Shown: piece after piece, positions 918 to 56,491 of the stretch | Layout: each line of letters begins with the position of its first letter | Numbering within the stretch: position 1 is the stretch's first letter | Origin: an uncultured Eubacteriales bacterium | Lineage (GTDB): Bacteria; Bacillota_I; Bacilli_A; RFN20; CAG-288 | Direction: 5' to 3' | Length of the DNA stretch: 63,325 nt | Assembly (NCBI GenBank): GCA_900316035.1 | Contig: ONBI01000016.1 | Coordinates: forward strand, 1 to 63,325 | Notes under the pieces: model-generated | Database searches by the model: none | What the model saw: the letters and a program-made list of their open reading frames with translations, nothing else | Told to the model about the DNA's origin: nothing | Program-made: the position numbers and the translations under genes

Positions 918-2336
918 TTACGCTTTTTTAACCGCTTCCTGTTGCTTTGCGGAAGTTGTTACTTCTTTTTTATCCATTTTCTTAAAAGTATTCCGAAAGA
1001 GGATAATCATAGAAATAATATGAGCAATCCATGTTATCCCCCAACTCAGAGGATAAGAAAGATAAAGACCGAAGATCGTATGGAACTGATCCAAAGGGAA
1101 AAGAGTATAAATATAAAGAATACGAAGAACACAGATACCCACTAAAGAAATAATCATAGGAGTAATAGAATAACCTAACCCTCTTACCGCTGAAGATATC
1201 GTACAGAGTAAACCATAGATGGTATAAGTAGCTCCGATGATCTTTATCTTCTCCAATCCATAGGAGATAGCCTCCGGATCCGAGATATAGATTCTCAGCA
1301 ACGGTTCTCCAAAGAAATATACAAAGAGACCACCGGACAAAGAGAAAAGAAAACCATAAAGAGAAGTATAGAAAGTAGAAGTGAGAATCCTCTTTTTATC
1401 CTTTGCTCCATAGTTCGCACCGACAAAAGCGACCGCCGTCTGGGCAAAAGCATCGACACCGGTAGAAAGGAAAGACTCAATCGAACTCTCGGCTCCGGTA
1501 CCGCTGACCGCAGCGGAACCGAAGGAGTTGATCGAACTCTGTAAGACAACATTGCTTAACGAGAACAGAGCCGATTGAATACCGGCCGGTAAACCGATTC
1601 GAAGGATATTGATCATCTCTACCTTATAGAACCGGATCTTTTTCCAGTGAAGAGAAGCAAAAGAGTTTTTGCTTCTTAATAAGGTATAAGTAACAAGAAA
1701 TGCCGAGATACCCTGAGAAATCAAAGTCGTAAGAGCAACCCCAGCAACATCGAGCTTGAAAGTGATGACAAAAAGAAAATTGAGACCCACATTGATCAGT
1801 CCCGAGAAGAAAAGATATAAGAAAGGTCTAAGAGTATCTCCCATACCGCGGAGTAATGCTGCTCCGAAGTTATAGATAATGATAAAGGGAATACCGATAA
1901 AGTAGATCGTCATATAGACGTTGCTTAAATCGATGATATCGGAAGGAGTACCCATGGCTAATAAAAAGTATTTGCTGCAGGTTACTCCGATCACCAATAG
2001 GAGGATACTGGAGAGGATTCCGATAAGATAGGTAGCTCCGATGATACGTTCCGCTTTCTCTTTATCTTTTTCGCCATAAGCCTGAGCAATCAAGACATTG
2101 GCTCCTACGGAGAAACCTAAGAAAAGAGAAACAATCAGACTGATCAGAGAGGTAGTAGCGGAAATTGCTCCGACCGAATTCTTCGAACCGAAGTTACCGC
2201 AGGTGATTAAATCCGCTGCGGAATAAAGGAGCTGTAACCATCCGGATAGCAGTACCGGAAAAGCAAAAAGCAGACTCTTTTTGGCAATCGAGCCTGTCGT
2301 CATATTCATCTGCAGAGAATGTCTTTTTTCTTCCAC
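918..2336 (-). CDS. MATE family efflux transporter
   Basis: 472-aa polytopic membrane protein with a MATE-like N-terminus (SIAKKSLLFAFPVLLSGWLQLLYSAADL) and a 12-TM-like layout. The annotated start at 2336 is GTG; ATG alternatives lie at 2309 and 2303. Confidence 0.85.
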   Translation of the reverse strand: MEEKRHSLQMNMTTGSIAKKSLLFAFPVLLSGWLQLLYSAADLITCGNFGSKNSVGAISATTSLISLIVSLFLGFSVGANVLIAQAYGEKDKEKAERIIGATYLIGILSSILLLVIGVTCSKYFLLAMGTPSDIIDLSNVYMTIYFIGIPFIIIYNFGAALLRGMGDTLRPFLYLFFSGLINVGLNFLFVITFKLDVAGVALTTLISQGISAFLVTYTLLRSKNSFASLHWKKIRFYKVEMINILRIGLPAGIQSALFSLSNVVLQSSINSFGSAAVSGTGAESSIESFLSTGVDAFAQTAVAFVGANYGAKDKKRILTSTFYTSLYGFLFSLSGGLFVYFFGEPLLRIYISDPEAISYGLEKIKIIGATYTIYGLLCTISSAVRGLGYSITPMIISLVGICVLRILYIYTLFPLDQFHTIFGLYLSYPLSWGITWIAHIISMIILFRNTFKKMDKKEVTTSAKQQEAVKKA

Positions 2337-2418
2337 AGAAAAAGATTCTAGTGCTTTTCTAAGAAGATAAAAGGAATTCGCCTATGAAACGGGTTTCTAA
2401 GGAAGAAAAAGCGGAAAT

Positions 2419-2673
2419 TTACTTCTGGTCGATAGCCTTTCCTCTCTCTACTTCCTTGATTTTTCTTTTTCGTTCTGCTGCTTCCTCTGCTGTAAAACCG
2501 TTCTCATCCCGAAGAGAAATATGGATTCCTTGGTTACGGACAGCTTGCTTAATTAAGGCAAGGGTAGCTGCCGACATCGTTAATCCAAGAGAATCACAAA
2601 GCTTACGATATTCTTCCCTGGTTTCACGATTCATCTTGAAAGTAAAATTCGTCATTGTGTTCTTACTTGCCAT
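2419..2673 (-). CDS. RelB/DinJ family antitoxin-like protein (no toxin partner)
   Basis: MASKNTMTNFTFKMNRETREEYRKLCDSLGLTMSAATLALIKQAV matches the ribbon-helix-helix DinJ N-terminus. ATG at 2671-2673 is preceded by AGAGG. Confidence 0.7.
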   Translation of the reverse strand: MASKNTMTNFTFKMNRETREEYRKLCDSLGLTMSAATLALIKQAVRNQGIHISLRDENGFTAEEAAERKRKIKEVERGKAIDQK

Positions 2674-2802
2674 AACCTCTACCAACGGGATACGACAAAA
2701 CACGTATAGAATATGTGCTTTTTAGGTGCAAGAGAAATTCTACTTCAACCAAAAATAGCAACCGGAATCAAAGAGGATTCCCGCTGCTATGGATTGTCTT
2801 CT

Positions 2803-4059
2803 TTATTCTGTTTCGATCCAGAGAGGAGAAGAAAGAAGAACTTCTTCTTTTACTTCTTTCCCGCTTAAGAGATCCTTTCCTTTACAGGGTAAAGTATAAG
2901 GAAGCTCATGCTTCTTAGAAAGATTGAAGACACCGTATTCTACTTTATTGTTCTCAAAGGAGTTCTTTACTAAGAGAACATTCTCCTTGGTAGAGAGGAT
3001 CTCCGAATAACGGAGAGAAGTATTCTTCTCTCTATGTTTCAGAGAAACCAGTTTCTGATAGAAATCATAATAGTCTTTATCTAGGACTTCCTGAGGAATC
3101 GTTTCTTTTTCAAAGATATCCGGATGATGAGTCGCTTTTCTTTCTTCTCCGTTATAGACAAAAGCAGGACCTTTCGTGAAGAAAGAGAAAGCTAACAGAG
3201 ATCTTGTGAAAGATTCCTCTTTGGAATAGGAAGCGATTCTTTTCCGATCATGGTTTTCAATCGCTCTCGTCACAAGACAATCATAAGGAAGAGAAGCTTC
3301 TTCTAAAGAGAATGCAGCTTCATAAGGAGCTAAAGAATCGCTTCTTCCTTCTAAATAATCCTGTAACCATCCCCAGGAAGCATAAGGATAAAAGAGTTCC
3401 ATACCACTAGCCGCATATTCGCCATTCGAATAACTCGGGATACCTATGGCTCTTAGATAATTGAGGAACTTCGTATCCACGACTTCCCCTAAGAAAAGAC
3501 AGTCTTTTCCTAAGGCCTCTTTGGCTTTCTTGAAAAACGATGGCGGAATCAAAGAAGTCACATCAAAACGGAAACCATCGATCCCTAAAGAGACATATTT
3601 CTTCAAGACTTTGTCGATGAGATATTCATCGACCCCTTTGACACTGTGATTCAGATCGGCTACATCGCTCCAATCTTTGATACGGTTAACGGGTTTCCCG
3701 TCTTTCTGATAGAACCAATCTGGATGTTCTTTACTAAGTTTGGAATCTCTCGAGGTATGGTTAAACACCATATCGAGGATCACTTTCTTTCCCTTATAAT
3801 GAAGAAGAGAAGTGAATTCCTTGAGATCTTCCTCGTTACCATTCAGAGGATCGATCTTTTCATAATCCTGGATACTATAAGGAGAACCATAGGTTCCTTT
3901 TCTACCTATCTTTCCGAGGGGTTGAATCGGCATCAGATAAAAGATATCGCCACCGGTCGAAAGAAGCGTATCTAAGTTCTTAATCAATCCCTGAAGATTC
4001 CCTTCTTCACTATAGTCTCTTACAAAAATCTGATAGATGATCTTATCTCTGAGTTCCAT
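2803..4059 (-). CDS. alpha-amylase family (GH13) glycoside hydrolase
   Basis: GH13 conserved regions are present: VILDMVFNHTS, GIDGFRFDV, FLGEVV and IENHD. ATG at 4057-4059 has AAAGGAG upstream. Confidence 0.85.
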   Translation of the reverse strand: MELRDKIIYQIFVRDYSEEGNLQGLIKNLDTLLSTGGDIFYLMPIQPLGKIGRKGTYGSPYSIQDYEKIDPLNGNEEDLKEFTSLLHYKGKKVILDMVFNHTSRDSKLSKEHPDWFYQKDGKPVNRIKDWSDVADLNHSVKGVDEYLIDKVLKKYVSLGIDGFRFDVTSLIPPSFFKKAKEALGKDCLFLGEVVDTKFLNYLRAIGIPSYSNGEYAASGMELFYPYASWGWLQDYLEGRSDSLAPYEAAFSLEEASLPYDCLVTRAIENHDRKRIASYSKEESFTRSLLAFSFFTKGPAFVYNGEERKATHHPDIFEKETIPQEVLDKDYYDFYQKLVSLKHREKNTSLRYSEILSTKENVLLVKNSFENNKVEYGVFNLSKKHELPYTLPCKGKDLLSGKEVKEEVLLSSPLWIETE

Positions 4060-4161
4060 TGGTTTTCGGACTCCTTTCTCTTCAATAAGATAGCAGAAAA
4101 AACAGAGCCAGAAGCAAAAACACTTTCTATAATGTTTCCTTAGTCAAAGAGGAAAAAGACC

Positions 4162-5160
4162 TTGTTCCAAGCTAGATTCACTGTTCCTTCTTACTACGAA
4201 GGCTTTGCCTGCAAAGGCAAAGAATGCCGTAACTGCTGTTGTCAGGGATGGAAAATCACCCTGAATCAGAAAGAATACTTCTCTCTCCATTCTCTTGAGG
4301 TACCAGAAGAGATCAATGAAAAAATAGAAGCCTATGTCGGTATCGAAGAACATCCTAGCGTAGAAGACTATGGAAGAATCAATCTCACCTACGAAGGAAA
4401 ATGCCCCTTTCGACGGAAGAAAGACGGATACTGCGCTTTACAGGTTCTTTTAGGAGAAGAAAAAATACCATCGGTATGCCGCTATTATCCAAGAGCACCA
4501 AGACTCTATCCGGTTCCCGAATGCTCCATCTCCAACTCCTGTGAATGGGTCATCGAAGAACTGATCCATTCCAAAGAGAAACTCACCTTCCATAAGAAGA
4601 CCCTCTCCTTTGCTTTCGAGGATGACGAAAGAAAAGAGTATCCGAAAGACTTCATCACCAAGAGAAACCACTGCTTCTCTTTGATCGGGAACAGAAGATA
4701 TACGATACCGGAAAGACTTTCCCATATCGCTACCTATCTCGGAGTGACACCTTTACCGAGAAAAGAAATTCCTCTTTATCTAACCTATCTGAAACAAGCT
4801 ACTCATCATTCCTATAGCCTAGGAGAAGAAGTAAGTAAGATGGATCCGGATAGAGATCCTCTTACAAGAGAAACTCTCCTTTCCAACAAGATTCCTTACT
4901 ACGAGATAAGAGCCGAAAAGATCTTTGCCAATCATCTTCTTTTTGTCACCTTCCCTTATGTCGGGGAAGAAGAGAATTTCTTCAAGGCGGCAAGAGGACT
5001 AGAAGTCCTCTATTCCTTCTATGAAGAAATCCTTCTATCCTGCTTACCAAGATATAACCGGGAAAAGTTTGTTGACCTCACCGCTTCTTTCTTCCGACTT
5101 GCGGAACACTCGAATCTTTATTCTTTGATTTCTTCTATCACCCCATTGATAGAAAAATAA
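4162..5160 (+). CDS. FliB-like cysteine-cluster protein (flagellin lysine-N-methylase / YkgJ-type CxxxxCxxCCC family)
   Basis: The N-terminus PSYYEGFACKGKECRNCCCQGWKITLNQKEY resembles the FliB family signature, recalled from memory. TTG start with AAGAGGAAAAA upstream. Confidence 0.55.
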   Translation: MFQARFTVPSYYEGFACKGKECRNCCCQGWKITLNQKEYFSLHSLEVPEEINEKIEAYVGIEEHPSVEDYGRINLTYEGKCPFRRKKDGYCALQVLLGEEKIPSVCRYYPRAPRLYPVPECSISNSCEWVIEELIHSKEKLTFHKKTLSFAFEDDERKEYPKDFITKRNHCFSLIGNRRYTIPERLSHIATYLGVTPLPRKEIPLYLTYLKQATHHSYSLGEEVSKMDPDRDPLTRETLLSNKIPYYEIRAEKIFANHLLFVTFPYVGEEENFFKAARGLEVLYSFYEEILLSCLPRYNREKFVDLTASFFRLAEHSNLYSLISSITPLIEK

Positions 5161-5190
5161 GTTGTTTCTTTTTTCTTTAGATTTGATTAG

Positions 5191-5218
5191 AGAAAAAGCC
5201 GATAGGCACAGGCTTTCT
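5191..5218. terminator. bidirectional terminator (FliB-like gene / DinJ-like gene)
   Basis: aaagcc-gataggcaca-ggcttt hairpin, with an A-run before it and TTCTT after it. It sits between convergent 3' ends. Confidence 0.45.
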
Positions 5219-5307
5219 TAAGAAAATACGGATTTGCACATCAGATCGGATTGACCCGCCCTGAATTACCATTCAGGTCTTTCTTGAATGGATCGGTAAC
5301 TTTCCGT

Positions 5308-5604
5308 TCAAGCATGATCTTTATCCTCTCCGAGAACATCGTGGATCATCTCCTCGGCAGAGGAATATTTCTTTGCAGGGATTTTTCCGGCAGAAATCGA
5401 ACGAGCTTCCTCCATCGCTGCTTCCGTTTCGGCATTATACCGTGGCTGACGCACTTCAAAGGGAAGACCACCTTCCATCAAGGATACATGAAGGAAGATG
5501 TTGATGGCATCCGTAACGGACATACCAAACTTACTGTATAGGCTCTCAACCTCAGTCTTGAACTTAGGATCCACTCGAACATTGATGTTTGCAGACTTAG
5601 ACAT
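5308..5604 (-). CDS. RelB/DinJ family antitoxin-like protein (no toxin partner)
   Basis: MSKSANINVRVDPKFKTEVESLYSKFGMSVTDAINIFL is a DinJ-type RHH N-terminus. ATG at 5602-5604 has GGAGGTG upstream. The longer listed ORF (to 5712) adds an implausible N-terminal extension. Confidence 0.8.
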   Translation of the reverse strand: MSKSANINVRVDPKFKTEVESLYSKFGMSVTDAINIFLHVSLMEGGLPFEVRQPRYNAETEAAMEEARSISAGKIPAKKYSSAEEMIHDVLGEDKDHA

Positions 5605-11967: not shown

Positions 11968-13325
11968 ATGTACCAAGAAAGTTCAAACAGCGAATTGAAG
12001 GCCACCCTCATTGAGGAAGTGAAGCAGGAGATTGTCGCCTTTCTCAATAGTGATGGTGGCACAATTTATATTGGTGTGAACGATGACGGAAGTCTCGCAC
12101 CAAAGCTTTCCGAAAAGGCAAAAGACGAAGAGGATCTCAAGGTTTCCAATTGGATTCAGGAGGCGTTTTTCCCTAGCCCCGCCCATTACATAAAGCATTT
12201 CTTCAATGAGGACGGAGTACTTGTGATTGTCATTGAGAAAGGAGCGCAAAAGCCTTATTTCATACGTGACAAAGGACCAAAGCCGAGCGGTGTCTGGAAA
12301 AGAGAGGGACGGAGCAAGAGAAAAGCGACGGAGCAAGAAATCCTGGACATGATTCTCGAGTCTAGAAAATACAGCTTTGAAAAAGACATATCTGAGAACC
12401 AAGAGCTGACTTTCCACTACCTTTTTGAACGTCTGGAAAACTTGAAGATTCCCCATGAGAAGAGGAATCAGGTTTCTTTGGGACTGATTTCAAATAATGA
12501 CAGATACACCAATCTTGCTTTGATTCTGTCTGATCAATCCCCTATCGTGGTCAAGTTTGCAAAATACGATGCGCAGATGAATTTCTTAGCAAAAGCAGAA
12601 TACAAAGGGTCCATCCTAAAAAGTTTGGAAAATGTGCTTGATCGAGTAAAAAGCTTTGACGATGTCGTTGCCACTATCGATAACCGTTCGCTTCGACGAA
12701 TCGAACGGGAGTCCTACCCTTTCATCGCCTTGAGAGAAGGAGTTCTGAATGCCTTTGCCCATGCAGATTATCTGATTCGTTCAAACATCAAGATTGAGTT
12801 TTTCCCTGACCGGCTAAAGATCACAAACCCTGGGGGGGTATTTTCGATGCTTCCTTAGAAGATATTATGAACGGGGTTCAGACATATCGGAATCCGATGT
12901 TAGTGAATCTTCTCAGCAAAATCGGTTACCTTGAGAATTTCGGCACAGGTATACCAAGAATACAAAAGGCTTACGAGTCTAGCAAAAGGAAGCCAGAGTT
13001 CAATCCTACGGAAAATTTTTTCACCTTGTCGTTACCAAACTTAAATTTTGACCATGACCAAGTAAATGACCAAGTGACTGACCAAATAACTGACCAAATA
13101 ACTGAACCGATAAGCGATTTTGATTTAGCCGTTCTGCGATTTATCCGTGCTAATCCAGGAGAACACGCCACAACCATCGCAAAAGGAATCTTGCGAGATT
13201 ATCCGACAGCAACAATAGATAAAGTGAAAAACTCCCTTAAAAGAAAGCTTCGTAATTATGTTGAATTCGACGGGGCGAATAAAAACGGCGGATATCGCGA
13301 GAAAAAGCAAAAGGAAATCAAGTAG
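11968..13325 (+). pseudogene. AlbA_2 (Schlafen-type) + HATPase_c_4 + C-terminal wHTH putative regulator, split by a -1 frameshift in a G7 tract
   Basis: ORFs 11968-12858 and 12867-13325 are two halves of one family member. The N-terminal half has the AlbA_2 motif FLNSDGGTIYIGVNDDGS and ends ...LKITNPGG. Adding one G at 12832-12838 reads through as GGGIFDASLEDIMNGVQTYRNPMLVNLLSKIGYLENFGTGIPRI. Confidence 0.75.
13050..13115 (+). repeat. in-frame 12-nt tandem repeat (gaccaaRtaaMt) encoding (D-Q-V/I-N/T)n linker
   Basis: gaccaagtaaat / gaccaagtgact / gaccaaataact / gaccaaataact / gaaccgataagc, read directly from the sequence. Confidence 0.85.
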
Positions 13326-26793: not shown

Positions 26794-27318
26794 GTCCTAT
26801 CGAATTTCCTTCGGCTCTATGTTAACCCCAGAACCTAAGAAAAGCATACGATTTCCAGAAGAACCGTTTCTCTCCATGGTTATTTTCTTTCTTAACCATG
26901 GCAAAGAAGTCTTCCTCTATTTCTAAAAGACGGGTTAGGAACATAGATATTTCTTCGACATCAAAGCGGAAATCGATACCTCGCCGGATACGGATATCTG
27001 TGTCATAGGAAGAACGAAGGAAATCAATATTAACAAATAGATGAATCGAAATCTGTAATTTCTTTAAAATCTATTGTTTTTATCGATAAAATTGAAAATA
27101 TCGGCTTAAAACTAAGAAAACAAGGGTTCTTTCTATGTTGGAAAAGTGCAAAAAACATAGCTTTTTCACGTTGGAAAACGGGACAATCTGAGCAAGAAAT
27201 CTTTACTTATGGAGCATTGATCGATTCTCCGATTTCGACATTTACCCCTCTCCGTGTTGTTCTTTCTTTTTCCTGGAAAAGCTTAAATAGAGCCGTAAAG
27301 AAAAAGAGGTTTCAACCA

Positions 27319-27470
27319 ATGAATACCGATAAAACGTATGCGGAGCAGATCGCCAGTGAGTATGCCCCGAAAAAGGAAAGCAAAGTCGTTGCTTTGAAAA
27401 AGCTCGATGCCAAAGCCAAAAGGCCGGCTTTGATCTTCGCCTATACTTTCGGAACGATCTCCGTTCTTTT
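27319..27470 (+). pseudogene. N-terminal fragment of a small conserved Firmicute membrane protein
   Basis: MNTDKTYAEQIASEYAPKKESKVVALKKLDAKAKRPALIFAYTFG matches a family N-terminus I recall. After about residue 50 the frame runs antisense to a better-looking minus-strand ORF. Confidence 0.3.
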
Positions 27471-27899
27471 CTCTTTCTTCTTCGGTATAGATCGGATAGA
27501 AAATCGTATGTTCTTTCTTCACTTCGTCATAGAACTGATTGAGAATCGAGGCGGTTCTTTCCGGATGGAGATTGGTATAGCAAGGAAAAACCTTTGAGGA
27601 AGAGACTTCTTCCAGGGTCATTTCCAAAGAGATTCAAAGCGTAATAAGTGGAAAAAGGAGGGAATAGTAATCTCCAAACAGAGGCTCGAAAAAAACATCC
27701 TGTACGGTGGAAGATAAAGAGAATCGTTCTTCTTTCCCTGGAACCATTTTCCTCATCCTTTCTAAGGACATCTTTTTCCTCCCAAATAGGATAGAAGAAA
27801 ACACCTAACATTTCATCCTCGGAAAGAAGATAGAAGCAAAACTTCCTCTTTTCTTTTCCATCTCTATCCCTTAAAGTAGTCCCATTGAGGAAAAAGGAA

Positions 27900-28847
27900 A
27901 TGATTCACTCTGGAAAAGTAGCCGTCATCGGTTGTGGCGCTGTCGGTTCTTCAATCGCTTTTGCTCTGATGCAGAATCCTTATGTCCATGAGCTTGTTCT
28001 TCTCGATTACAAACAGGAAAAAGCCGAGGGAGAAGCTCTTGATATTCTTCACGGAGTACCTTTTGCAAGACCGACAGATGTCTATGCCGGAAAATACGAA
28101 GACCTCAAAGATGCCGAAGTCATCGTCATCTCGGCCGGTGTCGGACCGAAACCCGGTCAGACCCGTTTCGATCAGATGAAAATCCATCTTTCGATTCTTC
28201 AGTCAATCCTGGATCAGCTAAATCAAGTCGAACCGGAAGGCTGTATTCTCTTAGTCTCGAATCCCGTCGATATCTTAACGGCCAAAACCCTGAAAGTAAC
28301 CGGTCTTCCCAAGAACCGTGTCTTCGGAAGCGGCACCTTACTCGATAGTGCCCGTTTCAAGACCATCTTAGCCTCGCATCTCCATGCGAATATCGACGAT
28401 ATCCATGGATACATTCTCGGGGAACACGGTGAAAGTGCCTTCCCTGCCTGGTCTTTGACCAATGTCGGAGGAATCCCAGTACAGGCCTTATTGAAAGCAA
28501 GCGGTGTAGAAAACCTAGAAAAAGAAGAAAAACAGATTCTCTCGGAAGTCGTCTCTTCCGGTTATGACATCGTCAAAAAGAAAGGGATGACCTGCTACGG
28601 CATTGCGATGTCGGTCAACCATATCGTTGAAAGTGTCCTGACCGATAGCAAAGCCATCCTTCCAATTTCGGTTTTACAGGAAGAAGAAGGAATCGAAGGA
28701 GTCGCACTCTCTTTACCCACCGTCGTCGGAAAAGGAGGCGCGGAGAAAGTTCTTCCGGTCTCTCTTTCCGCTACCGAAAAGGAAGAGCTTCTTGCTTCGG
28801 CAAAGAAACTCAGGGAAGTCCTTACATCTCTGGATATTGTTTTCTGA
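27900..28847 (+). CDS. ldh: L-lactate dehydrogenase
   Basis: KVAVIGCGAVGSSIAFAL NAD-binding motif, plus LVSNPVD and GEHGES. ATG at 27900 follows GAGG. Confidence 0.9.
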   Translation: MIHSGKVAVIGCGAVGSSIAFALMQNPYVHELVLLDYKQEKAEGEALDILHGVPFARPTDVYAGKYEDLKDAEVIVISAGVGPKPGQTRFDQMKIHLSILQSILDQLNQVEPEGCILLVSNPVDILTAKTLKVTGLPKNRVFGSGTLLDSARFKTILASHLHANIDDIHGYILGEHGESAFPAWSLTNVGGIPVQALLKASGVENLEKEEKQILSEVVSSGYDIVKKKGMTCYGIAMSVNHIVESVLTDSKAILPISVLQEEEGIEGVALSLPTVVGKGGAEKVLPVSLSATEKEELLASAKKLREVLTSLDIVF

Positions 28848-28883
28848 TTTCCGATCGAGTATTCAAAAGCCTTCTATCCATAA

Positions 28884-28918
28884 CCGCTTTCACAGAAACA
28901 GATGTGAGGGCGGTTTTT
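28884..28918 (+). terminator. ldh rho-independent terminator
   Basis: ccgctttcaca / tgtgagggcgg stem (9 of 11 bp) followed by TTTTT. Confidence 0.7.
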
Positions 28919-28919
28919 G

Positions 28920-28948
28920 TTTGCAACGAGATTGGCTCGTTGCAAATT
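28920..28948. repeat. 29-nt element tttgcaacgag-attgg-ctcgttgcaaa(tt), perfect 11-5-11 palindrome, copy 1
   Basis: Identical to 30261-30289. It lies 13 nt beyond the AlbA_2 gene stop. Confidence 0.9.
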
Positions 28949-28961
28949 CATGACGGACCGC

Positions 28962-30218
28962 TTAATCGGCTTTCCTGTAGGTTGTCGCGGAACTGCGCCC
29001 TTCCTTTATCAGTACTCCTTTGCGGACCAAAGAATTCAGAAGGCGGATAAGAGTTGCTTTGCCCAAGTGAGAGACTTCTTCGATTTCGGAGCGTGTATAA
29101 GCGACATTATTTTCCAATAGTTTAATTAAATTCGATTCCGGTTTTGTCAGAATCGCTTTTTCTTTGAGAACTGGTAAAAGGATAGTGACACTGGTATCGA
29201 AAATCCGGAACTGAGGCTTCTGATAACTCTTCTCATAACTCTGACGGATTCTTTTGATTCCGGTGGCAAAGACTTCGACGATATTCAGACGATGGAAAAC
29301 ATTGGCCAGAATCGGATTTCTTAAAGAAGAGAAGCTTCCCTGAAGGTACTGCTCTTCGGAAAGGTTAGAGGGTAATCCGCCTGGGGAAGTGATTTCGATG
29401 TGATCCGCATAGAAGGAAACCTTCGTTTTTATCCGGACATCCCATGTCCGATGAATCAAAGCGTTGGCAAGGGCTTCGCGGAAAGCTTCGTAAGGAATCT
29501 TTTCGATTTTCTGACGGGTGGCACCTAGGATTCTTTCTTCGACATAGTTTCTTTCGAAAACAGCCATCGCATCATAGAACTGCTTCAATACGGATTCTCC
29601 GCTCAGATCGATACGCTCTTTGAAGGTGTTTTCATCTTCTCCGAAAACAGCGATGTCCAAACCGTAAAAATCGTTGCTATCCGCTAATAGGCAGGCAGCT
29701 ACGTTATAACCCTCTTTGTCGGAATAGAGGCCTAAAGTCTTCAGATTATCCAAATCAAAGCTTTCCACATTGAGTGTTTCTTTGAATTGATCCGCAAGAT
29801 AATGGAAAGAGAGATTTTGATTCCGGGAAGGAAGTTGTTCGAAATCCAGATTCTTTCCTCTGAGAATCAGTCTCTTCAGTTCATCGTTATCCACTTCGAT
29901 GGTTGCCGTATCGTTGCGGCGGTAGGCTTTTCCGTTATAAAGATAAGGTGTGTTCTCTCCCTGGTAGACTAAAAGAACAATTGTCTTATCCTTCTGAATC
30001 GTCAAAGAAAAATGCGGAACAGGCTTCAGAGAATCGTTGATCTGATTCTCAATCGATTCACAGAAGGATTTACTATCTTCGATGGGAACAATCCGATAAT
30101 CATCACGGACACCGAAAATGATCTTCCCAGTTCCATAATTAGCGAAAGCGGAGACAGTCTTCAGATAGCTCTTCGTCATATCGCTTTTGTATTCTAAGGC
30201 CTGATTTTCTTTTTCCAT
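28962..30218 (-). CDS. AlbA_2 (Schlafen-type) + HATPase_c_4 + wHTH putative ATP-dependent DNA-binding regulator
   Basis: LEYKSDMTKSYLKTVSAFANYGTGKIIFGVRDD (AlbA_2), REALANALIHRTWDVRIKTKVSFYADHIEITSPGGLP (HATPase_c_4-like), and a C-terminal wHTH, LGKATLIRLLNSLVRKGVLIKEG. Confidence 0.8.
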   Translation of the reverse strand: MEKENQALEYKSDMTKSYLKTVSAFANYGTGKIIFGVRDDYRIVPIEDSKSFCESIENQINDSLKPVPHFSLTIQKDKTIVLLVYQGENTPYLYNGKAYRRNDTATIEVDNDELKRLILRGKNLDFEQLPSRNQNLSFHYLADQFKETLNVESFDLDNLKTLGLYSDKEGYNVAACLLADSNDFYGLDIAVFGEDENTFKERIDLSGESVLKQFYDAMAVFERNYVEERILGATRQKIEKIPYEAFREALANALIHRTWDVRIKTKVSFYADHIEITSPGGLPSNLSEEQYLQGSFSSLRNPILANVFHRLNIVEVFATGIKRIRQSYEKSYQKPQFRIFDTSVTILLPVLKEKAILTKPESNLIKLLENNVAYTRSEIEEVSHLGKATLIRLLNSLVRKGVLIKEGRSSATTYRKAD

Positions 30219-30248
30219 AGCATTCTTTTCTACCCGATAGTATATCGT

Positions 30249-30467
30249 ATGTGTAACGAGTTTGCAACGAGATTGGCTCGTTGCAAATTTGCTTATTTAT
30301 ACAAAACCAAAAACGAATATGTGAGAGAAAAACTCGGTGTCTCACGCAATACGGCCGGGAAATATCTCAACGAACTTGAGAAGATTGGAATCTTGACTTC
30401 CGAACAGGTCGGAAAAGAGAAAATCTATAAGAACAATTATCTTTACGATTTGATGAAAGACTGGTAA
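30249..30467 (+). pseudogene. 3' stump of a Fic family gene (C-terminal wHTH only)
   Basis: ...YLYKTKNEYVREKLGVSRNTAGKYLNELEKIGILTSEQVGKEKIYKNNYLYDLM matches the C-terminal DNA-binding tail of long Fic proteins. No Fic core (HxFxxGNGR) lies upstream, and the reading frame begins inside palindrome copy 2. Confidence 0.55.
30261..30289. repeat. 29-nt palindromic element, copy 2
   Basis: Identical to 28920-28948. It lies 43 nt upstream of the AlbA_2 start codon. Confidence 0.9.
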
Positions 30468-30489
30468 GAAAAGTAAGAACAAAAGTTTA

Positions 30490-30529
30490 CTTCATAAGCT
30501 TGTGGATCCCCACAACTTTATGAAATAAG
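30490..30529. repeat. 40-nt imperfect palindrome cttcataagcttgtgg-atcc-ccacaactttatgaaataag, copy A
   Basis: 15-4-15 arms with 13 of 15 complementary. About 80 percent identical to 31850-31889 in the same orientation. It ends 3 nt before the AAA gene stop. Confidence 0.85.
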
Positions 30530-30532
30530 ATG

Positions 30533-31834
30533 CTAGATATCCAGCGAATCGGGGTCTTTGAGGAAGCGGAAAAGATTGAGATGGAGGATGCCGTTTTCGT
30601 CATAAAGCCCGGTTCCGGAAATCTTTGTAATCAGAATCTTTTTGAAAGAGTCCCTAATCAAAAGCAGAGGGTGGATTTCTTGTTTCCGTTTCTCTTCATC
30701 TGGAATATAGAGAGCCGATTGAATGTAATATCTTTTTCCATGTCTTTCCGCGACAAAATCGACTTCGTAGTTCTTTCTTTCCGTCTTCCCGGATTTGCCT
30801 TCGGAATATTCGCTCACTCCTCCGATGGAGACCTGATATCCGCGGAGAATCAGTTCGTTATAGATGACGTTCTCCATATAATGAGGCTCCTGGTTCTGGT
30901 CGGTGAAATCACAGGCGGCATTCCGCAAACCGAGATCTTCAAAGTAATATTTTTTCTGGGAACCGATATGTTCTTTTCCTTTGATGTCAAAGCGACTTGC
31001 TCCATGAAGAAGGAAAGCATCTTCCAGATAGGTGAGATAACGTGCGATAGTCGCCGGGGATACTTTGTTTCCTTCTTTGCTCACGAAGGTGCTCGAAAGT
31101 CGGTTCGGATTGACAAAGGAACCGACGGTTGAGGCAAGAACCTTCACGGTTTCGTCTAAGCTTCTTTCGCCCCGAAGAGAAAAACGCTCAACGATATCTC
31201 TCAGATAAGTGGTAAGGTAGACATCACGGAGATAATCTCTTTCCTGTTCCTCATCTTCCGTTCTTGCAATCGCCGGTAAACCACCGTAGAGGTAATAGCG
31301 ATTCCAAAGGGAAAAATCATCTCCTCTCCCTTCGTTTGCACTAGAAAATTCCGCAAAGCTTAGAGGATGCATAGGAATCTGCCAACCTCTTCCGCGGAAT
31401 TCGGTAGCGATATCGCTCGAAAGCAAGTGGGAATTGCTTCCGGTCACGAAAATCTCTGTATTTTTGTAACTTAGGAACTGATTCAGGACATCATAGAAAG
31501 TGATTTTCTGTCCTTTTACCCACGGATTCTCTTTCGGATAGGAAAGCTGTATTTCGTCGATGAGGAAAAACTGCGTTTTCCCATCGCTGGTTTTTCTCTC
31601 GTTGAAGTATTTCTGGAGTTCATCGAGATCGCGGTATCTTTCCTTGTCCCGCTTATCTAACTGCAAAGCGAGGATATGGTCTTCCTTTACTCCTTGTTCC
31701 TTGAGATATTTGGGGAACATCTCGAAAAGAAGATAGGATTTTCCGCATCTTCTTGGTCCCGTGATGATTTTCACCATCCCGTTACCGATAGAAGATTCCA
31801 GTTTCTTCAGATAAAGGTCTCTTTTGATTTCCAT
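30533..31834 (-). CDS. AAA+ ATPase with DUF4143-type C-terminal domain
   Basis: Walker A ITGPRRCGKS and Walker B FFLIDEIQ. The C-terminal KNYEVDFVAERHGKRYYIQSA block resembles a PD-(D/E)XK-like E-x-D...K core. Confidence 0.85.
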   Translation of the reverse strand: MEIKRDLYLKKLESSIGNGMVKIITGPRRCGKSYLLFEMFPKYLKEQGVKEDHILALQLDKRDKERYRDLDELQKYFNERKTSDGKTQFFLIDEIQLSYPKENPWVKGQKITFYDVLNQFLSYKNTEIFVTGSNSHLLSSDIATEFRGRGWQIPMHPLSFAEFSSANEGRGDDFSLWNRYYLYGGLPAIARTEDEEQERDYLRDVYLTTYLRDIVERFSLRGERSLDETVKVLASTVGSFVNPNRLSSTFVSKEGNKVSPATIARYLTYLEDAFLLHGASRFDIKGKEHIGSQKKYYFEDLGLRNAACDFTDQNQEPHYMENVIYNELILRGYQVSIGGVSEYSEGKSGKTERKNYEVDFVAERHGKRYYIQSALYIPDEEKRKQEIHPLLLIRDSFKKILITKISGTGLYDENGILHLNLFRFLKDPDSLDI

Positions 31835-31849
31835 GCTTTCTCCTTTCTA

Positions 31850-31889
31850 CTTCATAAAATTGTGGAAAACCACAGATTTGTGAAATAAG
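31850..31889. repeat. 40-nt imperfect palindrome cttcataaaattgtgg-aaaa-ccacagatttgtgaaataag, copy B
   Basis: Same architecture as 30490-30529. It begins 15 nt upstream of the AAA gene start. Confidence 0.85.
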
Positions 31890-32031
31890 TATACCATGAA
31901 GGGAAGATAATGTATCTCTGAAACGGAATTTCTAAGTGAACCTTCTGAAAATCTTTCTTTTGGATCTTTCCACCGCACATGATAATGGCTGGATTTTCTT
32001 CCCTCTTCTTTTCCTCGCTTTCTATTTTCCG

Positions 32032-32060
32032 TTGACGAACCCCCTCTAGGCGAGTATCAT
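32032..32060 (+). promoter_or_regulatory. sigma-70-type promoter of the pyr operon
   Basis: TTGACG (32032-32037), a 17-nt spacer, then TATCAT (32055-32060). Confidence 0.55.
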
Positions 32061-32075
32061 CTTGTCAGTCGGAAA

Positions 32076-32205
32076 TCTTTAAAACGATACAGAGAGATCG
32101 TTAAGACATATCCCGAAAAAATATCCTTGCCCTTATTCTATCTACGAACATCTTCTTATCACGGAACCATGTCCTATCTCCCTTTATCGGAGATAGGATT
32201 TTTTT
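32076..32205 (+). promoter_or_regulatory. PyrR-dependent transcription attenuator (binding loop plus terminator)
   Basis: tctttaaaacgatacagagagatcgtt carries a CAGAGAG loop on a 6-bp stem (32083-32102), like the PyrR binding-loop consensus. Downstream is a perfect 10-bp hairpin, tcctatctcc/ggagatagga (32172-32198), plus T7, immediately before pyrR. Confidence 0.75.
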
Positions 32206-32223
32206 CTGACAGGGAGGTAACGC

Positions 32224-50488: not shown

Positions 50489-50520
50489 CTTGCAACGAAT
50501 TTGCTATAAGATTTGCATAA
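50489..50520. repeat. element cttgcaacgaatttgctataagatttgcataa (degenerate copy)
   Basis: About 85 percent identical to 50611-50643 over about 30 nt, in the same orientation, 122 nt upstream of it. Confidence 0.75.
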
Positions 50521-50610: not shown

Positions 50611-50643
50611 AGCAACAACGAATTCGTTGTAAGATTTACATAA
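50611..50643. repeat. element agcaacaacgaattcgttgtaagatttacataa containing the perfect 16-bp palindrome acaacgaattcgttgt
   Basis: Read directly from the sequence. It ends 4 nt before the ATG of the second AAA-DUF4143 gene. Confidence 0.8.
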
Positions 50644-50647
50644 TCAT

Positions 50648-51922
50648 ATGGTAAATAGAGATACTTATCTGAATCAGCTTATCCATAATATGTGGAACGG
50701 AGAAGTTAAAGTCATCACAGGAATCCGTCGCTGTGGAAAATCCGTTCTTCTTTTTGATCTGTTCCATGATTACCTCCTTTCTCAAGGGGTCAAGGAAGAT
50801 CATATTCTTACCATCAAGCTGGATCAGCGAAAGTATTTAGTCTATCGGGACCCTGTTGTTCTCTGCGATTATGTAGAAGGATTGATTTCAGCAAAAAAAG
50901 AAGAAAAGTTCTATCTTTTCATCGATGAGGTCCAGATGGCGAATACCAAAGCCGATACACGGAATCCGAACAGCAAAGTTACTATTTACGATATGCTTAA
51001 CGAGCTTAGAGATTATCCTAATCTCGATGTTTATGTCACGGGAAGCAACTCAAAAGGATTAGCCAAAGATATCGCAACGGAATTCCGTGGCCGCGCCACT
51101 CAGATTCCTGTTTACCCCCTTTCTTTCTCTGAGTTTTATTCGGCCTTCGGGGGCGAAGAAGAAAAGGCTTTAAATACGTATGTTCTCTTTGGTGGAATGC
51201 CTCGTTTACTTTCCATGAGCGATGAGAGGGAGAAGAAAAGCTATCTATCGGACCTTTTCCGGCTTGTCTATCTGAAAGACATTGAAGAAAGAAATCGTGT
51301 GGAACGGGAAGATGTTCTTGGTGAAATCCTGGATTATCTTGCTTCCCAGATTGGTACTTTGACTAATCCCAACAGTATCGCTAGATACCTCAATTCCATC
51401 GGGAAAGAAAAAATCAATGCCAATCTCATCACCCGTTACCTCCAGATCATCGAAGATTCTTTTCTATTAGCGGAAGCAAAGCGGTTCGATGTCAAAGGGA
51501 AGAGGTATTTTGATTATCCAAGCAAATATTACTTCACCGATCTTGGTTTACGTAACGCCCGTCTGAATTTCCGTCAGTTTGATTCCGGTCAACTGATGGA
51601 AAACTTGATTTACAATGAACTTGTCCGCCGCGGATATTCGGTCGATGTTGGCGTTGTCCTCGATAGGAGAGACTACAAGGACAAGCAGAAAGAAATCGAT
51701 TTTGTGATCAATGACGCAGATAGGAGAGTCTACATTCAGTCGGCTCTTGCAATGAATAGCAAAGAAAAAGAGGAGGCGGAACTATCCCCGTTTTTCCTCA
51801 CGGGAGACTTTTTTACTAAGATCATAATTCAGAAGGATATTCCGACCAGCTACTATGACGAGAAGGGAATTTTCCATATGAAGCTGATGGATTTCCTGCT
51901 CAACCGCATCAAGTTGTTCTAA
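50648..51922 (+). CDS. AAA+ ATPase with DUF4143-type C-terminal domain (paralog of 30533-31834)
   Basis: ITGIRRCGKS, LFIDEVQ and KQKEIDFVINDADRRVYIQSA. By eye roughly half of the residues are identical to the other copy. Confidence 0.85.
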   Translation: MVNRDTYLNQLIHNMWNGEVKVITGIRRCGKSVLLFDLFHDYLLSQGVKEDHILTIKLDQRKYLVYRDPVVLCDYVEGLISAKKEEKFYLFIDEVQMANTKADTRNPNSKVTIYDMLNELRDYPNLDVYVTGSNSKGLAKDIATEFRGRATQIPVYPLSFSEFYSAFGGEEEKALNTYVLFGGMPRLLSMSDEREKKSYLSDLFRLVYLKDIEERNRVEREDVLGEILDYLASQIGTLTNPNSIARYLNSIGKEKINANLITRYLQIIEDSFLLAEAKRFDVKGKRYFDYPSKYYFTDLGLRNARLNFRQFDSGQLMENLIYNELVRRGYSVDVGVVLDRRDYKDKQKEIDFVINDADRRVYIQSALAMNSKEKEEAELSPFFLTGDFFTKIIIQKDIPTSYYDEKGIFHMKLMDFLLNRIKLF

Positions 51923-56185: not shown

Positions 56186-56491
56186 ATGATCAAAGTCTAT
56201 GGTATGCCGTCTTGTCCTTATTGCGCCTATGTGAAAAAACAAATCGAAGGAAACAAGAACTTCGTCTATTACGATATCGGTAGCGATGTTCATCTTCTCC
56301 ATGAATTCTTGGAATTCAGAGACCATGATCCGGCTTTTGTTCCCTATAAAGAAGAAGGCGATGTCGGTATTCCGGCCTTTGTCTTAGAAAACGGCAAGGT
56401 CACTTTGGAACCGAGTGAAGTCGGACTTCACTCCTATTCCGAAGTGCTGAAAGCGAAGAAATCCTGCCGTCTAGACGGAAAAGGCTGCTAG
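56186..56491 (+). CDS. glutaredoxin-like (NrdH/Grx-type) thioredoxin-fold protein
   Basis: MIKVYGMPSCPYCAYVKK contains a CPYC redox motif. ATG at 56186 follows GAAGGAGGA. Confidence 0.7.
   Translation: MIKVYGMPSCPYCAYVKKQIEGNKNFVYYDIGSDVHLLHEFLEFRDHDPAFVPYKEEGDVGIPAFVLENGKVTLEPSEVGLHSYSEVLKAKKSCRLDGKGC

What the first reader, a model, noticed from the sequence alone, without database searches (positions are those of the whole stretch)
28919..31890. Accessory islet between the ldh terminator and the pyr promoter: modular units of AlbA_2 regulator, Fic stump and AAA-DUF4143 ATPase
ldh terminates at 28918 and the pyr promoter starts at 32032. The 3.1 kb in between carries only families that are typically multi-copy and patchily distributed: an AlbA_2/HATPase_c_4 plus wHTH protein, a Fic C-terminal stump, and an AAA+ ATPase. 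The ATPase C-terminus (YEVDFVAERHGKRYYIQSA) looks like a PD-(D/E)XK nuclease core, so it would be an ATPase-nuclease. Each intact gene is bracketed by its own pair of palindromic elements. No integrase or transposase is present in the window. One hypothesis is that these are exchangeable cassettes moved by site-specific recombination at the palindromes, by analogy with Xer-dependent dif modules or integron attC sites, with a possible role in phage or plasmid defence. Alternatively, the palindromes are operators for the wHTH domains of the encoded proteins.
Basis: partly seen in the sequence, partly recalled or inferred. Interest (0 to 1): 0.7.

Follow-up and report, generated by a model that had tools for sequence, protein, structure and literature searches.

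The report
Defence-type genes flanked by own operators
Between ldh and the pyr operon of an uncultured rumen bacterium sit two intact candidate phage-defence genes and a dead Fic remnant; each intact gene carries the same palindrome at its promoter and just after its stop codon. These palindromes look like binding sites for the gene's own protein, not like integron- or Xer-type recombination sites.

Summary
Palindrome A (30 nt, 100% identical copies) brackets an AlbA_2/GHKL/wHTH gene. Palindrome B (42 nt, 81%) brackets an AAA_14-DUF4143 (PADLOC PDC-S01) gene. A 72-aa SoFic C-terminal stump lies between them. These are the only copies in 63 kb.

The islet is identical in about 30 contigs of the species, and no recombinase is present.

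Relatives at unrelated loci show the same design. Five or six AlbA_2 relatives (57-78% aa) and seven of the ten closest AAA loci (the window included), plus one outlier, have matching palindromes upstream and just after the stop. Homology to the window ends at the outer palindrome edges.

Across about 85 AAA homologues, a 14-bp TG...CA palindrome sits right after the promoter box in both Firmicutes-type and Bacteroidota-type promoters. It is often duplicated about 75 bp upstream. In the AlbA_2 clade the palindrome arm is the -35 box, and lone half-sites occur. Both proteins model with winged-helix domains.

Best reading (about 0.5): portable, autoregulated single-gene modules whose palindromes are operators, with a 3' auxiliary site. 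Xer/integron-like exchange is not supported but not excluded.

The DUF4143 nuclease fold is present, but the canonical ExK motif reads QSA.

The parts
28882..28921 (+). ldh intrinsic terminator (13-bp stem plus T-run). Palindrome A starts directly at its T-run.
28919..28948 (.). Palindrome A, 3' copy, 13 nt after the AlbA_2 stop codon (11-12-bp arms, 5-nt loop).
   Evidence: A 3' copy is present in L027, L029, L121, L117 and L131, and decayed in L119.
28962..30218 (-). AlbA_2 (Schlafen-like) / GHKL-type HATPase_c_4 / C-terminal winged-helix protein, 418 aa.
   Evidence: Pfam. AF2 model pLDDT 89.3. Foldseek hits to DIP2311, PDK-type GHKL domains, and SLFN13/SAMD9 N-domains.
30239..30267 (-). 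Promoter-like site TTGCAA-17-TATACT of the AlbA_2 gene. The -35 box is the gene-proximal arm of palindrome A.
   Evidence: The same design occurs in L029, L121, L117 and L131 and in L119.
30253..30260 (+). Isolated half-site GTAACGAG, lying inside the promoter spacer.
   Evidence: (I1). Lone half-sites also occur in L029, L119, L121, L117 and L131.
30260..30289 (.). Palindrome A, promoter copy.
30249..30467 (+). Stump of a SoFic-type Fic gene. Only the C-terminal wHTH domain remains. Fic homology starts at about residue 14, which is the outer edge of palindrome A.
30488..30529 (.). Palindrome B, 3' copy, 3 nt after the AAA stop (core TGTGGATCCCCACA at 30501-30514). It folds as a stable hairpin and is followed by a U-rich tail on the gene strand.
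30533..31834 (-). AAA_14-DUF4143 protein (PADLOC PDC-S01), 433 aa. Domains: AAA+ (Walker A GPRRCGKS, Walker B DE93-94), wHTH at about 223-300, and a PD-(D/E)XK-like C-terminal domain with motif D359...Q372-S-A.
31848..31889 (.). Palindrome B, promoter/leader copy (core TGTGGAAAACCACA at 31861-31874). It ends 13 nt before the ATG, just upstream of the GAAAGGAG ribosome-binding site.
31888..31896 (-). Extended -10 element TGgTATACT, abutting and overlapping the start of palindrome B.
   Evidence: Read from the sequence. The same arrangement occurs in homologues.
32032..32206 (+). pyr promoter-like site (32032-32060) and PyrR-binding leader (32072-32206). This marks the right border of the islet.

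Best explanation
The ldh-pyr interval holds two independent, self-contained single-gene modules of candidate defence families, plus the dead end of a third (Fic). In each module the palindromes are binding sites for the winged-helix domain of the protein the module encodes.

The promoter copy would give negative autoregulation. Palindrome A supplies the -35 box and has an extra half-site in the spacer. Palindrome B covers the region from the -10 box to the ribosome-binding site.

The copy placed immediately after the stop codon would act as an auxiliary operator. It could cooperate with the promoter copy by looping, act as a protein roadblock or insulator against the convergent neighbour, or both. 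B1 may also terminate transcription.

Because these sites are the outermost constrained parts of genes that move horizontally as units, homology between loci ends at them. That gives a cassette-like look without the palindromes being crossover sites.

Shown here: the anatomy, its recurrence in relatives, the position of the palindromes on promoters, and the wHTH folds. Inferred: protein binding, repression, and the role of the 3' copy.
For: (1) Position. TTGCAA-17-TATACT uses an arm of A as the -35 box. The same holds in L029, L121, L117 and L131 and in L119.

(2) Isolated GCAACGAG-type half-sites, which cannot form hairpins, accompany A in six lineages.

(3) AAA family survey. 44 of 84 homologue loci have a TG...CA palindrome 15-30 nt before the ATG, against 10% in shuffles. 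30 of the 44 are exactly 14 bp however the arm and loop are partitioned, and some are perfect with no loop. That is the geometry of a dimer site on duplex DNA.

(4) In 36 of 46 loci with the core palindrome (the 44 above plus two from loci added later), the palindrome follows a TATAAT-like box or a Bacteroidota TAnnTTTG box within 32 nt. The promoter type changes with the host, but the palindrome stays at the transcription start.

(5) Second copies recur independently. Fifteen loci have one 72-85 bp upstream, and one locus has 7 tandem units. Others have one directly after the stop: window, L033, L034, L037, L055, L119, L128 and L130. This is scattered on the protein tree.

(6) In L121 the flanking A sites are 84-88% identical while the sequence between them is 62%.

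(7) Both proteins model with wHTH domains. The AAA protein resembles Orc1/Cdc6 bound to DNA.

(8) Each palindrome type is found only next to its own gene family.

(9) No recombinase is present, and the islet is invariant in about 30 contigs.
Against: - No binding or expression data exist.
- A 1.3-kb operator pair with one site abutting the stop codon is unusual for bacterial autoregulation.
- The 3' copy begins only 0-10 nt after the stop in six AAA loci. A repeated unit boundary (operator-ORF-operator), as left by circle integration or tandem duplication, would predict the same spacing.
- Homology blocks ending exactly at the outer palindrome edges, and the Fic gene truncated exactly at A, also fit breakage or joining at the palindromes.
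- The L119 3' copy of A is decaying, so it is not always maintained.
- Three of the ten closest AAA loci lack a 3' copy.
Confidence: 0.5

Rival explanations
1. Exchangeable cassettes. The palindromes are crossover sites for a site-specific or hairpin-specific recombinase encoded elsewhere, or possibly the encoded protein itself. A unit of palindrome plus ORF excises as a circle and integrates at another palindrome.
For: - The units recur at unrelated loci, and homology ends at the outer palindrome edges: L033 2015-3406 matches window 31889-30501, L121 1782-3148 matches 30285-28920, and L029 2071-3438 matches 30287-28922.
- The 3' copy abuts the stop codon.
- The Fic gene is truncated at the edge of A.
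- The window keeps only the gene-proximal A on each side, whereas L029 and L121 have two per side.
- Other AAA modules are flanked by 52-90-bp direct repeats.
- A contig (L033) breaks inside a palindrome.
Against: - No integrase, Xer, transposase or Y1 gene is present in 63 kb.
- The islet is identical in all roughly 30 conspecific contigs, and the ldh-A-AlbA_2 junction is shared with the only related species.
- No solo palindromes were found in the window, in the fetched loci, or in JGI metagenomes.
- Each palindrome flanks only its own gene family, whereas attC and dif sites flank diverse cargo.
- Neither palindrome has GTTRRRY/RYYYAAC ends or an 11-6-11 dif layout.
- The promoter-locked position and the 75-bp tandem copies are unexplained by recombination.
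Confidence: 0.15
2. The 3' copies have no function. Palindromes stimulate slippage, template switching or unequal crossing-over, so promoter-operator units are repeatedly duplicated. Some duplicates end up downstream of the gene and survive for a while.
For: - Tandem 74-76-bp duplications of the promoter-operator unit are common, and they are polymorphic between samples: L035 has two copies and L036 one, while L097 has seven.
- The L119 3' copy of A is degenerate.
- B1 and B2 differ at 8 of 42 positions.
Against: - The 3' copies keep their palindromic cores while neighbouring sequence drifts.
- The A copies are 100% identical, and the A stems are unchanged between genes that are only about 69-71% identical at the nucleotide level.
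- The arrangement persists across a clade spanning 56-82% aa identity, and it arose again in L055.
- The position right after the stop codon is too regular for random duplicates.
Confidence: 0.15
3. RNA-level elements (applies to B only). The palindrome acts as a 5'-leader hairpin that stabilises the mRNA or gates translation, and the 3' copy acts as a terminator or 3' stabiliser.
For: - B lies between the -10 box and the ribosome-binding site, so its inner stem is transcribed.
- B1 folds at -19 kcal/mol (z -4.95) and is followed by AACUUUUGUUCUU. B2 folds at -13.9 kcal/mol (z -2.4).
- The stem sequence varies widely between homologues while pairing is kept.
Against: - The total length is fixed at 14 bp with conserved TG/CA ends and A-tract flanks.
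- Several sites are perfect palindromes with no loop, which are poor hairpins.
- The outer left arm of B2 overlaps the -10 box and transcription start, so it would not be in the RNA.
- Most 3' copies lack a U-run (L034).
- This cannot apply to A, whose promoter copy is the -35 box.
- No Rfam family matches.
Confidence: 0.1

Closest known systems
PADLOC phage-defence candidate PDC-S01 (COG1373; Pfam AAA_14 + DUF4143)
   Same: The full-length HMM match is 1e-109, with the same architecture of an ATPase fused to a PD-(D/E)XK-superfamily domain (PMC12988326, PMC3424549). It is the most frequent single defence-candidate locus in rumen genomes (PMC13356809), which matches the rumen origin of this window.
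   Different: Defence activity of PDC-S01 is untested (PMC12988326). This clade has Q-S-A in place of the E-x-K motif. In the papers I searched, I found no description of the conserved 14-bp palindrome at the promoter or of its second copy.
COG2865-type AlbA_2/HATPase_c_4 'transcriptional regulators'; DIP2311 structure (PDB 3lmm)
   Same: The same Pfam domains and the same overall fold: Foldseek E 1e-23 to 3lmm, a Schlafen/SAMD9-like N-domain, and a GHKL-like middle domain.
   Different: No member has a defined function or operator as far as my searches showed. Here a specific cis-site (TTGCAACGAG-N5-CTCGTTGCAA plus half-sites) can be assigned to one clade.
SoFic (Fic-domain defence protein)
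   Same: The stump matches the last ~60 residues of SoFic models, at positions 297-359 of 361.
   Different: The Fic catalytic domain is absent. It is a gene remnant, not a system.
Genes flanked by binding sites for their own product: iteron plasmids (P1 incC-repA-incA) and auxiliary-operator looping (lac, gal, deo). This comparison is from my own knowledge.
   Same: A promoter-overlapping site gives autoregulation, and further copies of the same site lie beyond the 3' end of the gene or at phased distances upstream.
   Different: No replication function is implied here. The proteins are unrelated to Rep or LacI, and binding is not shown.
Integron cassettes (attC) and Xer-dependent pdif modules
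   Same: These are compact units of an ORF plus an imperfect palindrome. The units are found in different contexts, and boundaries fall at the palindromes.
   Different: There is no IntI or Xer gene nearby, and no attC or dif sequence anatomy. The palindrome is specific to one gene family and locked to its promoter. No arrays, solo sites or presence/absence variation were seen.
'Insertion with long target duplication' described for restriction-modification genes (Nobusato/Kobayashi; from memory, not checked in the library)
   Same: Some AAA_14-DUF4143 modules (L081, L092) are flanked by 90-bp and 52-bp direct repeats of local sequence that contain a terminator.
   Different: In the window the repeats are element-derived palindromes shared between loci, not target-derived sequence.

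Membership tests
PADLOC PDC-S01 / Pfam AAA_14 + DUF4143 | Full-length match to the family HMMs | tested here: met
   PDLC04787 1.1e-109 over 3-427. AAA_14 4e-27 and DUF4143 6e-16, both above the gathering cut-offs.
PADLOC PDC-S01 / Pfam AAA_14 + DUF4143 | Intact P-loop ATPase motifs | tested here: met
   Walker A G26-x4-G31-K32-S33 and Walker B D93-E94 are invariant in 41 sequences.
PADLOC PDC-S01 / Pfam AAA_14 + DUF4143 | Anti-phage activity | not testable with these tools
   The family is only a candidate, with validation pending (PMC12988326).
PD-(D/E)XK nucleases | Alpha-beta-beta-beta-alpha core fold | tested here: met
   The AF2 model has H316-330, E334-345, E351-364, E367-374 and H380-391. 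Foldseek hits VC1899 and Cdn1. DUF4143 is listed in the superfamily (PMC3424549).
PD-(D/E)XK nucleases | Catalytic D...(D/E)-x-K motif | tested here: not met
   The motif is E-V-D359-F...Y-I-Q372-S-A in the window and nearly all of about 85 clade members. A paralogue from a sister strain (L015) has the canonical E-V-K. A conserved E/D-K382...Q-E386 in the next helix might compensate.
COG2865-type AlbA_2/HATPase_c_4 proteins | N-terminal AlbA_2 (Schlafen-like) domain plus HATPase_c_4, with a C-terminal HTH | tested here: met
   Pfam 2.4e-15 and 6.8e-19. wHTH at 359-416 in the model. Some homologues carry a TrmB HTH hit.
SoFic / Fic proteins | Fic domain with the HPFx[D/E]GNGR motif | tested here: not met
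   The 72-aa ORF matches only SoFic-like_C. No Fic domain is present.
Integron gene cassette | attC site (57-141 bp, RYYYAAC...GTTRRRY ends, extrahelical bases) and an IntI/attI platform | tested here: not met
   A is 30 nt and B is 42 nt, and neither has the R''/R' consensus (read). No integrase is present in the window. There is no cassette array.
Xer-dependent dif/pdif module | 28-bp site: two 11-bp arms around a 6-8-bp spacer. The same site flanks diverse cargo. | tested here: not met
   B has CATAA/TTATG-like outer arms, but they are separated by 20 bp that form their own palindrome. A has no resemblance. Each site is restricted to one gene family.
REP/BIME or MITE-type repeats | Many dispersed copies per genome | tested here: not met
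   Only the two gene-flanking copies of each occur in 63 kb and in about 10 kb of flanks in more than 20 related contigs. The B pattern is absent from 185,579 species genomes and from IMG/VR.
IS200/IS605-type element / PATE | Subterminal hairpins recognised by a Y1 (HUH) TnpA; insertion 3' of a short target motif | tested here: inconclusive
   Directly oriented imperfect palindromes at both ends resemble left-end and right-end hairpins. However, no tnpA is present in the window, no empty site is available, and the left hairpin is locked to the promoter in homologues.
Autoregulated gene with palindromic operator | Palindrome overlapping the core promoter or transcription start; the encoded protein has a DNA-binding domain | tested here: met
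Autoregulated gene with palindromic operator | Specific binding of the protein to the site, and repression | not testable with these tools
   Needs EMSA, footprinting or reporter assays.

The most novel reading that the evidence does not exclude
The palindrome-ORF-palindrome units are autonomous mobile cassettes. The encoded DNA-binding ATPase (an ORC/Cdc6-like AAA+ domain, a wHTH and a modified PD-(D/E)XK domain) or the AlbA_2/GHKL/wHTH protein recognises its own flanking palindromes and promotes excision, integration or copying of its gene. That would make PDC-S01, one of the most abundant defence candidates in prokaryotes, a new class of selfish single-gene element, and it would explain the family's patchy, multi-copy, cross-phylum distribution.
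Probability: 0.1. Interest if true: 0.85.

Novelty: new variant of a known kind. Interest (0 to 1): 0.45.

Why it matters
PDC-S01 (AAA_14-DUF4143) is reported as the most frequent single defence-candidate locus in rumen genomes and the fourth most common across prokaryotes, yet nothing is known about how it works. The same is true of AlbA_2/HATPase_c_4 proteins.

This work assigns each family a concrete, testable DNA site. For the AAA family it is a 14-bp TG...CA palindrome at the transcription start. For an AlbA_2 clade it is TTGCAACGAG-N5-CTCGTTGCAA plus half-sites.

That gives experimenters defined ligands for EMSA, footprinting and structural work. It predicts autoregulation, and it suggests these proteins are sequence-specific DNA binders. 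The paired-site design (a promoter copy plus a copy at the stop codon, or one 75 bp upstream) is a regulatory architecture that can be tested directly. If the minority reading is right, it would instead reveal a mobility mechanism.

Tried and rejected
- A degenerate B pattern was scanned in genome contigs and viral contigs, and the A pattern in viral contigs. All gave 0 hits. The species is therefore absent from the GTDB representative set, and B is not a widespread repeat.
- I tested whether the 418-aa ORF at 2803-4059 is a paralogue of the AlbA_2 gene. It is not; it is an alpha-amylase-family protein.
- I looked for presence/absence variation of the islet among strains. There is none. The only variation lies left of ldh, and it is a deletion remnant, not an empty site.
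- I tried to compare the ldh-pyrR interval in related species. ldh homologues drop from 98% and 83% straight to 53% identity, so only one relative (L027) exists in the databases, and its contig ends inside AlbA_2.
- An Rfam search of the islet found only a sub-threshold PyrR leader.
- A PDB sequence search with the AAA profile gave no hit.
- A viral-contig search for AlbA_2 relatives gave only three useful loci.
- I rejected a conserved AlbA_2/AAA/Fic trio as one system. The L119 Fic belongs to a different subfamily from the stump.
- I looked for target-site duplications outside the palindromes and saw none in the sequence.
- I looked for a half-specific chimeric pattern between B1 and B2, as a crossover inside the site would leave. 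The differences are spread over both halves.

Full report
**1. What is there**

The interval between ldh and the pyr promoter-like site holds three features.
- ldh: the ORF is 27900-28847 and its terminator hairpin is 28882-28915.
- The pyr promoter-like site is 32032-32060, with a sub-threshold PyrR leader at 32072-32206.
- Gene 1, 28962-30218(-), encodes a 418-aa SLFN_AlbA_2 + HATPase_c_4 protein.
- ORF 2, 30249-30467(+), is 72 aa and matches only the C-terminal wHTH domain of SoFic-type Fic proteins.
- Gene 3, 30533-31834(-), encodes a 433-aa AAA_14 + DUF4143 protein. It matches the PADLOC candidate PDC-S01 at 1e-109.

- A (30 nt): 28919-28948 and 30260-30289, identical copies.
- B (42 nt): 30488-30529 and 31848-31889, 81% identical.

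Both pairs are in direct orientation. Neither occurs elsewhere in the window, and shuffles give zero matches. A lies 41 nt upstream of its gene's ATG and 13 nt past its stop. B lies 13 nt upstream of the ATG and 3 nt past the stop.

**2. Source and population**

Proteins identical to ldh, AlbA_2 and AAA occur on about 30 contigs. These come from rumen and gut metagenomes and from one NCBI MAG (GCA_002481535.1). One ldh relative is labelled 'Eubacteriales bacterium'.

All of these contigs carry the same islet at 97.8-98.6% nucleotide identity. The palindromes are conserved apart from one loop change and one stem change.

Strain variation exists only on the other side of ldh. Some strains there carry a TetR gene and a third AAA_14-DUF4143 gene. 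The window keeps a remnant of that gene's promoter repeats, so this is a deletion and not an empty site.

No integrase or transposase domain was found in the window.

**3. Palindrome A elsewhere**

A scan of JGI metagenomes found A only next to AlbA_2 genes, apart from two unrelated single hits, which is the number expected by chance.
- L027, a relative with 80% nt identity in ldh, has ldh-A-AlbA_2.
- L029/L030/L032 come from another organism. Its AlbA_2 gene (69% nt) sits at a different locus, upstream of a glutaredoxin-like gene whose homologue in the window lies at 56186-56491 with no A nearby. There the gene is flanked on both sides by a unit of about 170 bp, consisting of A, 112 nt, a half-site and A.

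Further homologues show the same thing. L121 (76% aa), L117 (58%) and L131 (58%) have the promoter-operator block upstream and a copy downstream. L119 (57%) has a decaying downstream copy. More distant relatives (48%, L122-124) have a different palindrome, upstream only.

In every lineage the gene-proximal arm of A is the -35 box of a TTGCA(A/T)-17/18-TAnnnT promoter, and a lone half-site lies in or beside the spacer. Lone half-sites cannot form hairpins, so they point to recognition of duplex DNA by a protein.

In L121 the flanking site blocks are 84-88% identical, while the sequence between them is 62% identical.

**4. Palindrome B elsewhere**

The closest AAA homologues lie at unrelated loci. 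Most again have matching palindromes before the ribosome-binding site and directly after the stop.

| Locus | aa identity | 3' copy after stop |
|---|---|---|
| L033 | 82% | yes, +10 |
| L034 | 62% | yes, +7 |
| L128 | 59% | yes, +1 |
| L130 | 60% | yes, +1 |
| L119 | 56% | yes, +95 |
| L037 | 53% | yes |
| L035/36, L038, L039 | 53-60% | no |

Nucleotide homology between the window and L033 or L034 stops at the outer edges of B.

I then surveyed 80 homologue loci from species genomes across at least six phyla.
- Nine of 81 loci with both flanks, the window included, have upstream/downstream similarity above every control pair.
- 44 of 84 loci have a TG...CA palindrome 15-30 nt before the ATG, against 10% of shuffles. 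30 of these 44 are exactly 14 bp, with A-tract flanks.
- In 36 of 46 loci with the core palindrome (the 44 above plus two from loci added later), the palindrome follows a TATAAT-like box or the Bacteroidota TAnnTTTG box within 32 nt.
- Fifteen loci have a second copy 72-85 bp upstream. Succinivibrio dextrinosolvens has seven tandem units.

On a protein tree, the '3' copy' state fills most of the window's clade and also appears once outside it, in L055. The 'second upstream copy' state is scattered.

**5. The proteins**

The AAA model (pLDDT 88.7) has three parts: an AAA+ domain, a winged helix at about 223-300, and a PD-(D/E)XK-like C-terminal domain. Foldseek finds the archaeal ATPase SSO1545, Apaf-1, Orc1/Cdc6-DNA complexes, VC1899 and Cdn1.

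DUF4143 is already listed in the PD-(D/E)XK superfamily (PMC3424549). In this clade, however, the canonical E-x-K reads Q372-S-A. This residue pattern is invariant or nearly so, whereas a paralogue (L015) keeps E-V-K. The Walker motifs are intact.

The AlbA_2 model (pLDDT 89.3) ends in a winged helix at 359-416. It resembles DIP2311, GHKL ATPases, and Schlafen/SAMD9 N-domains.

**6. Interpretation**

The palindromes are best read as operators.
- They sit on the core promoter or transcription start regardless of host promoter type.
- They have fixed duplex-type geometry.
- They come with isolated half-sites.
- Their auxiliary copies fall at regular distances.
- They are specific to one gene family.
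- The encoded proteins have wHTH domains.

The copy at the stop codon would be an auxiliary operator, roadblock or insulator. This would make the gene a portable, self-contained module. That in turn explains why homology ends at the palindromes, and why deletions such as the Fic truncation stop there. All of this is inference, because binding is untested.

The Xer/integron analogy is not supported. There is no recombinase, no solo or empty site, no population variation, and no attC or dif anatomy.

It cannot be excluded, though. The regular stop-codon spacing, the exact homology boundaries, and the direct repeats around other modules would also fit excision and integration at the sites.

**7. 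Context in the literature**

PDC-S01 is reported as the most frequent defence-candidate locus in 6,530 rumen genomes (PMC13356809). It is also reported as the fourth most common defence system in prokaryotes and as experimentally unvalidated (PMC12988326). I found no paper describing its cis-elements.

**8. Verdict**

The gene content is ordinary for a rumen defence islet. The paired family-specific palindromes are a real, recurrent and apparently undescribed regulatory architecture. The recombination-cassette reading remains a minority possibility.

Noticed in passing
window 50648-51922 (+); upstream sites 50490-50520 and 50611-50643: There is a second AAA_14-DUF4143 gene (424 aa) in the window. 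It has its own, different palindrome (ACAACGAATTCGTTGT, 50615-50630) just before the ATG, and a degenerate second copy about 120 nt upstream. It has no 3' copy; a conventional terminator hairpin follows the stop.
   Followed up: partly
window 11968-13325 (+); G7 tract 12832-12838: A second AlbA_2/HATPase_c_4 gene is split into two ORFs (296 aa and 152 aa) in different frames. The break is next to a run of seven G. This could be a pseudogene, a sequencing error or a slippage-prone tract. The linker is a DQ(V/I)(N/T)-type repeat.
   Followed up: no
window 27157-27228 and 27469-27680 vs L015/L017: Sister strains carry a TetR gene and a 123-aa gene left of ldh. One strain (L015) also carries a third AAA_14-DUF4143 gene (450 aa, canonical E-V-K nuclease motif), preceded by three direct repeats TTGGAAAAnTGCAAAAAA. 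The window keeps only the first repeat and a fragment, so this is a decayed locus.
   Followed up: partly
L119 (GCA_963649685.1) 1187-5512; L131 4001-8688; L130 67-5308; L117 6001-11763: AlbA_2/HATPase_c_4 genes and AAA_14(-DUF4143) genes are neighbours in four further unrelated loci, besides the window. In L119 they are followed by a full-length Fic gene. This may reflect a functional pair, or simply defence-island clustering.
   Followed up: partly
L097 (Succinivibrio dextrinosolvens DSM 3072), 47-490 nt upstream of the AAA gene: Seven tandem repeats of about 74 bp precede the gene, each containing the palindrome TGCGGTTATCCGCA. This is an iteron-like array in front of an ORC/Cdc6-like ATPase gene.
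   Followed up: no
L081 (-175..-85 and +8..+97) and L092 (-177..-125 and +28..+79) relative to the AAA gene: Direct repeats of local sequence, 90 bp (98% identical) and 52 bp, each containing an intrinsic terminator, flank the whole promoter-gene module. This looks like insertion with a long target duplication.
   Followed up: partly
L035 vs L036 (same species, two samples), about 100 nt upstream of the AAA gene: The 74-bp unit of -10 box plus palindrome is present twice in L035 and once in L036. This is a live copy-number polymorphism of the operator unit.
   Followed up: no
window 32072-32206 (+): The PyrR-binding leader scores 35 bits, below Rfam's gathering score of 54, although it sits exactly where a pyr attenuator is expected. 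It is a divergent member.
   Followed up: no
L128 3826-5860: One AAA homologue sits beside an NgoBV-type restriction enzyme and a DNA methylase, in line with a defence-island setting.
   Followed up: no
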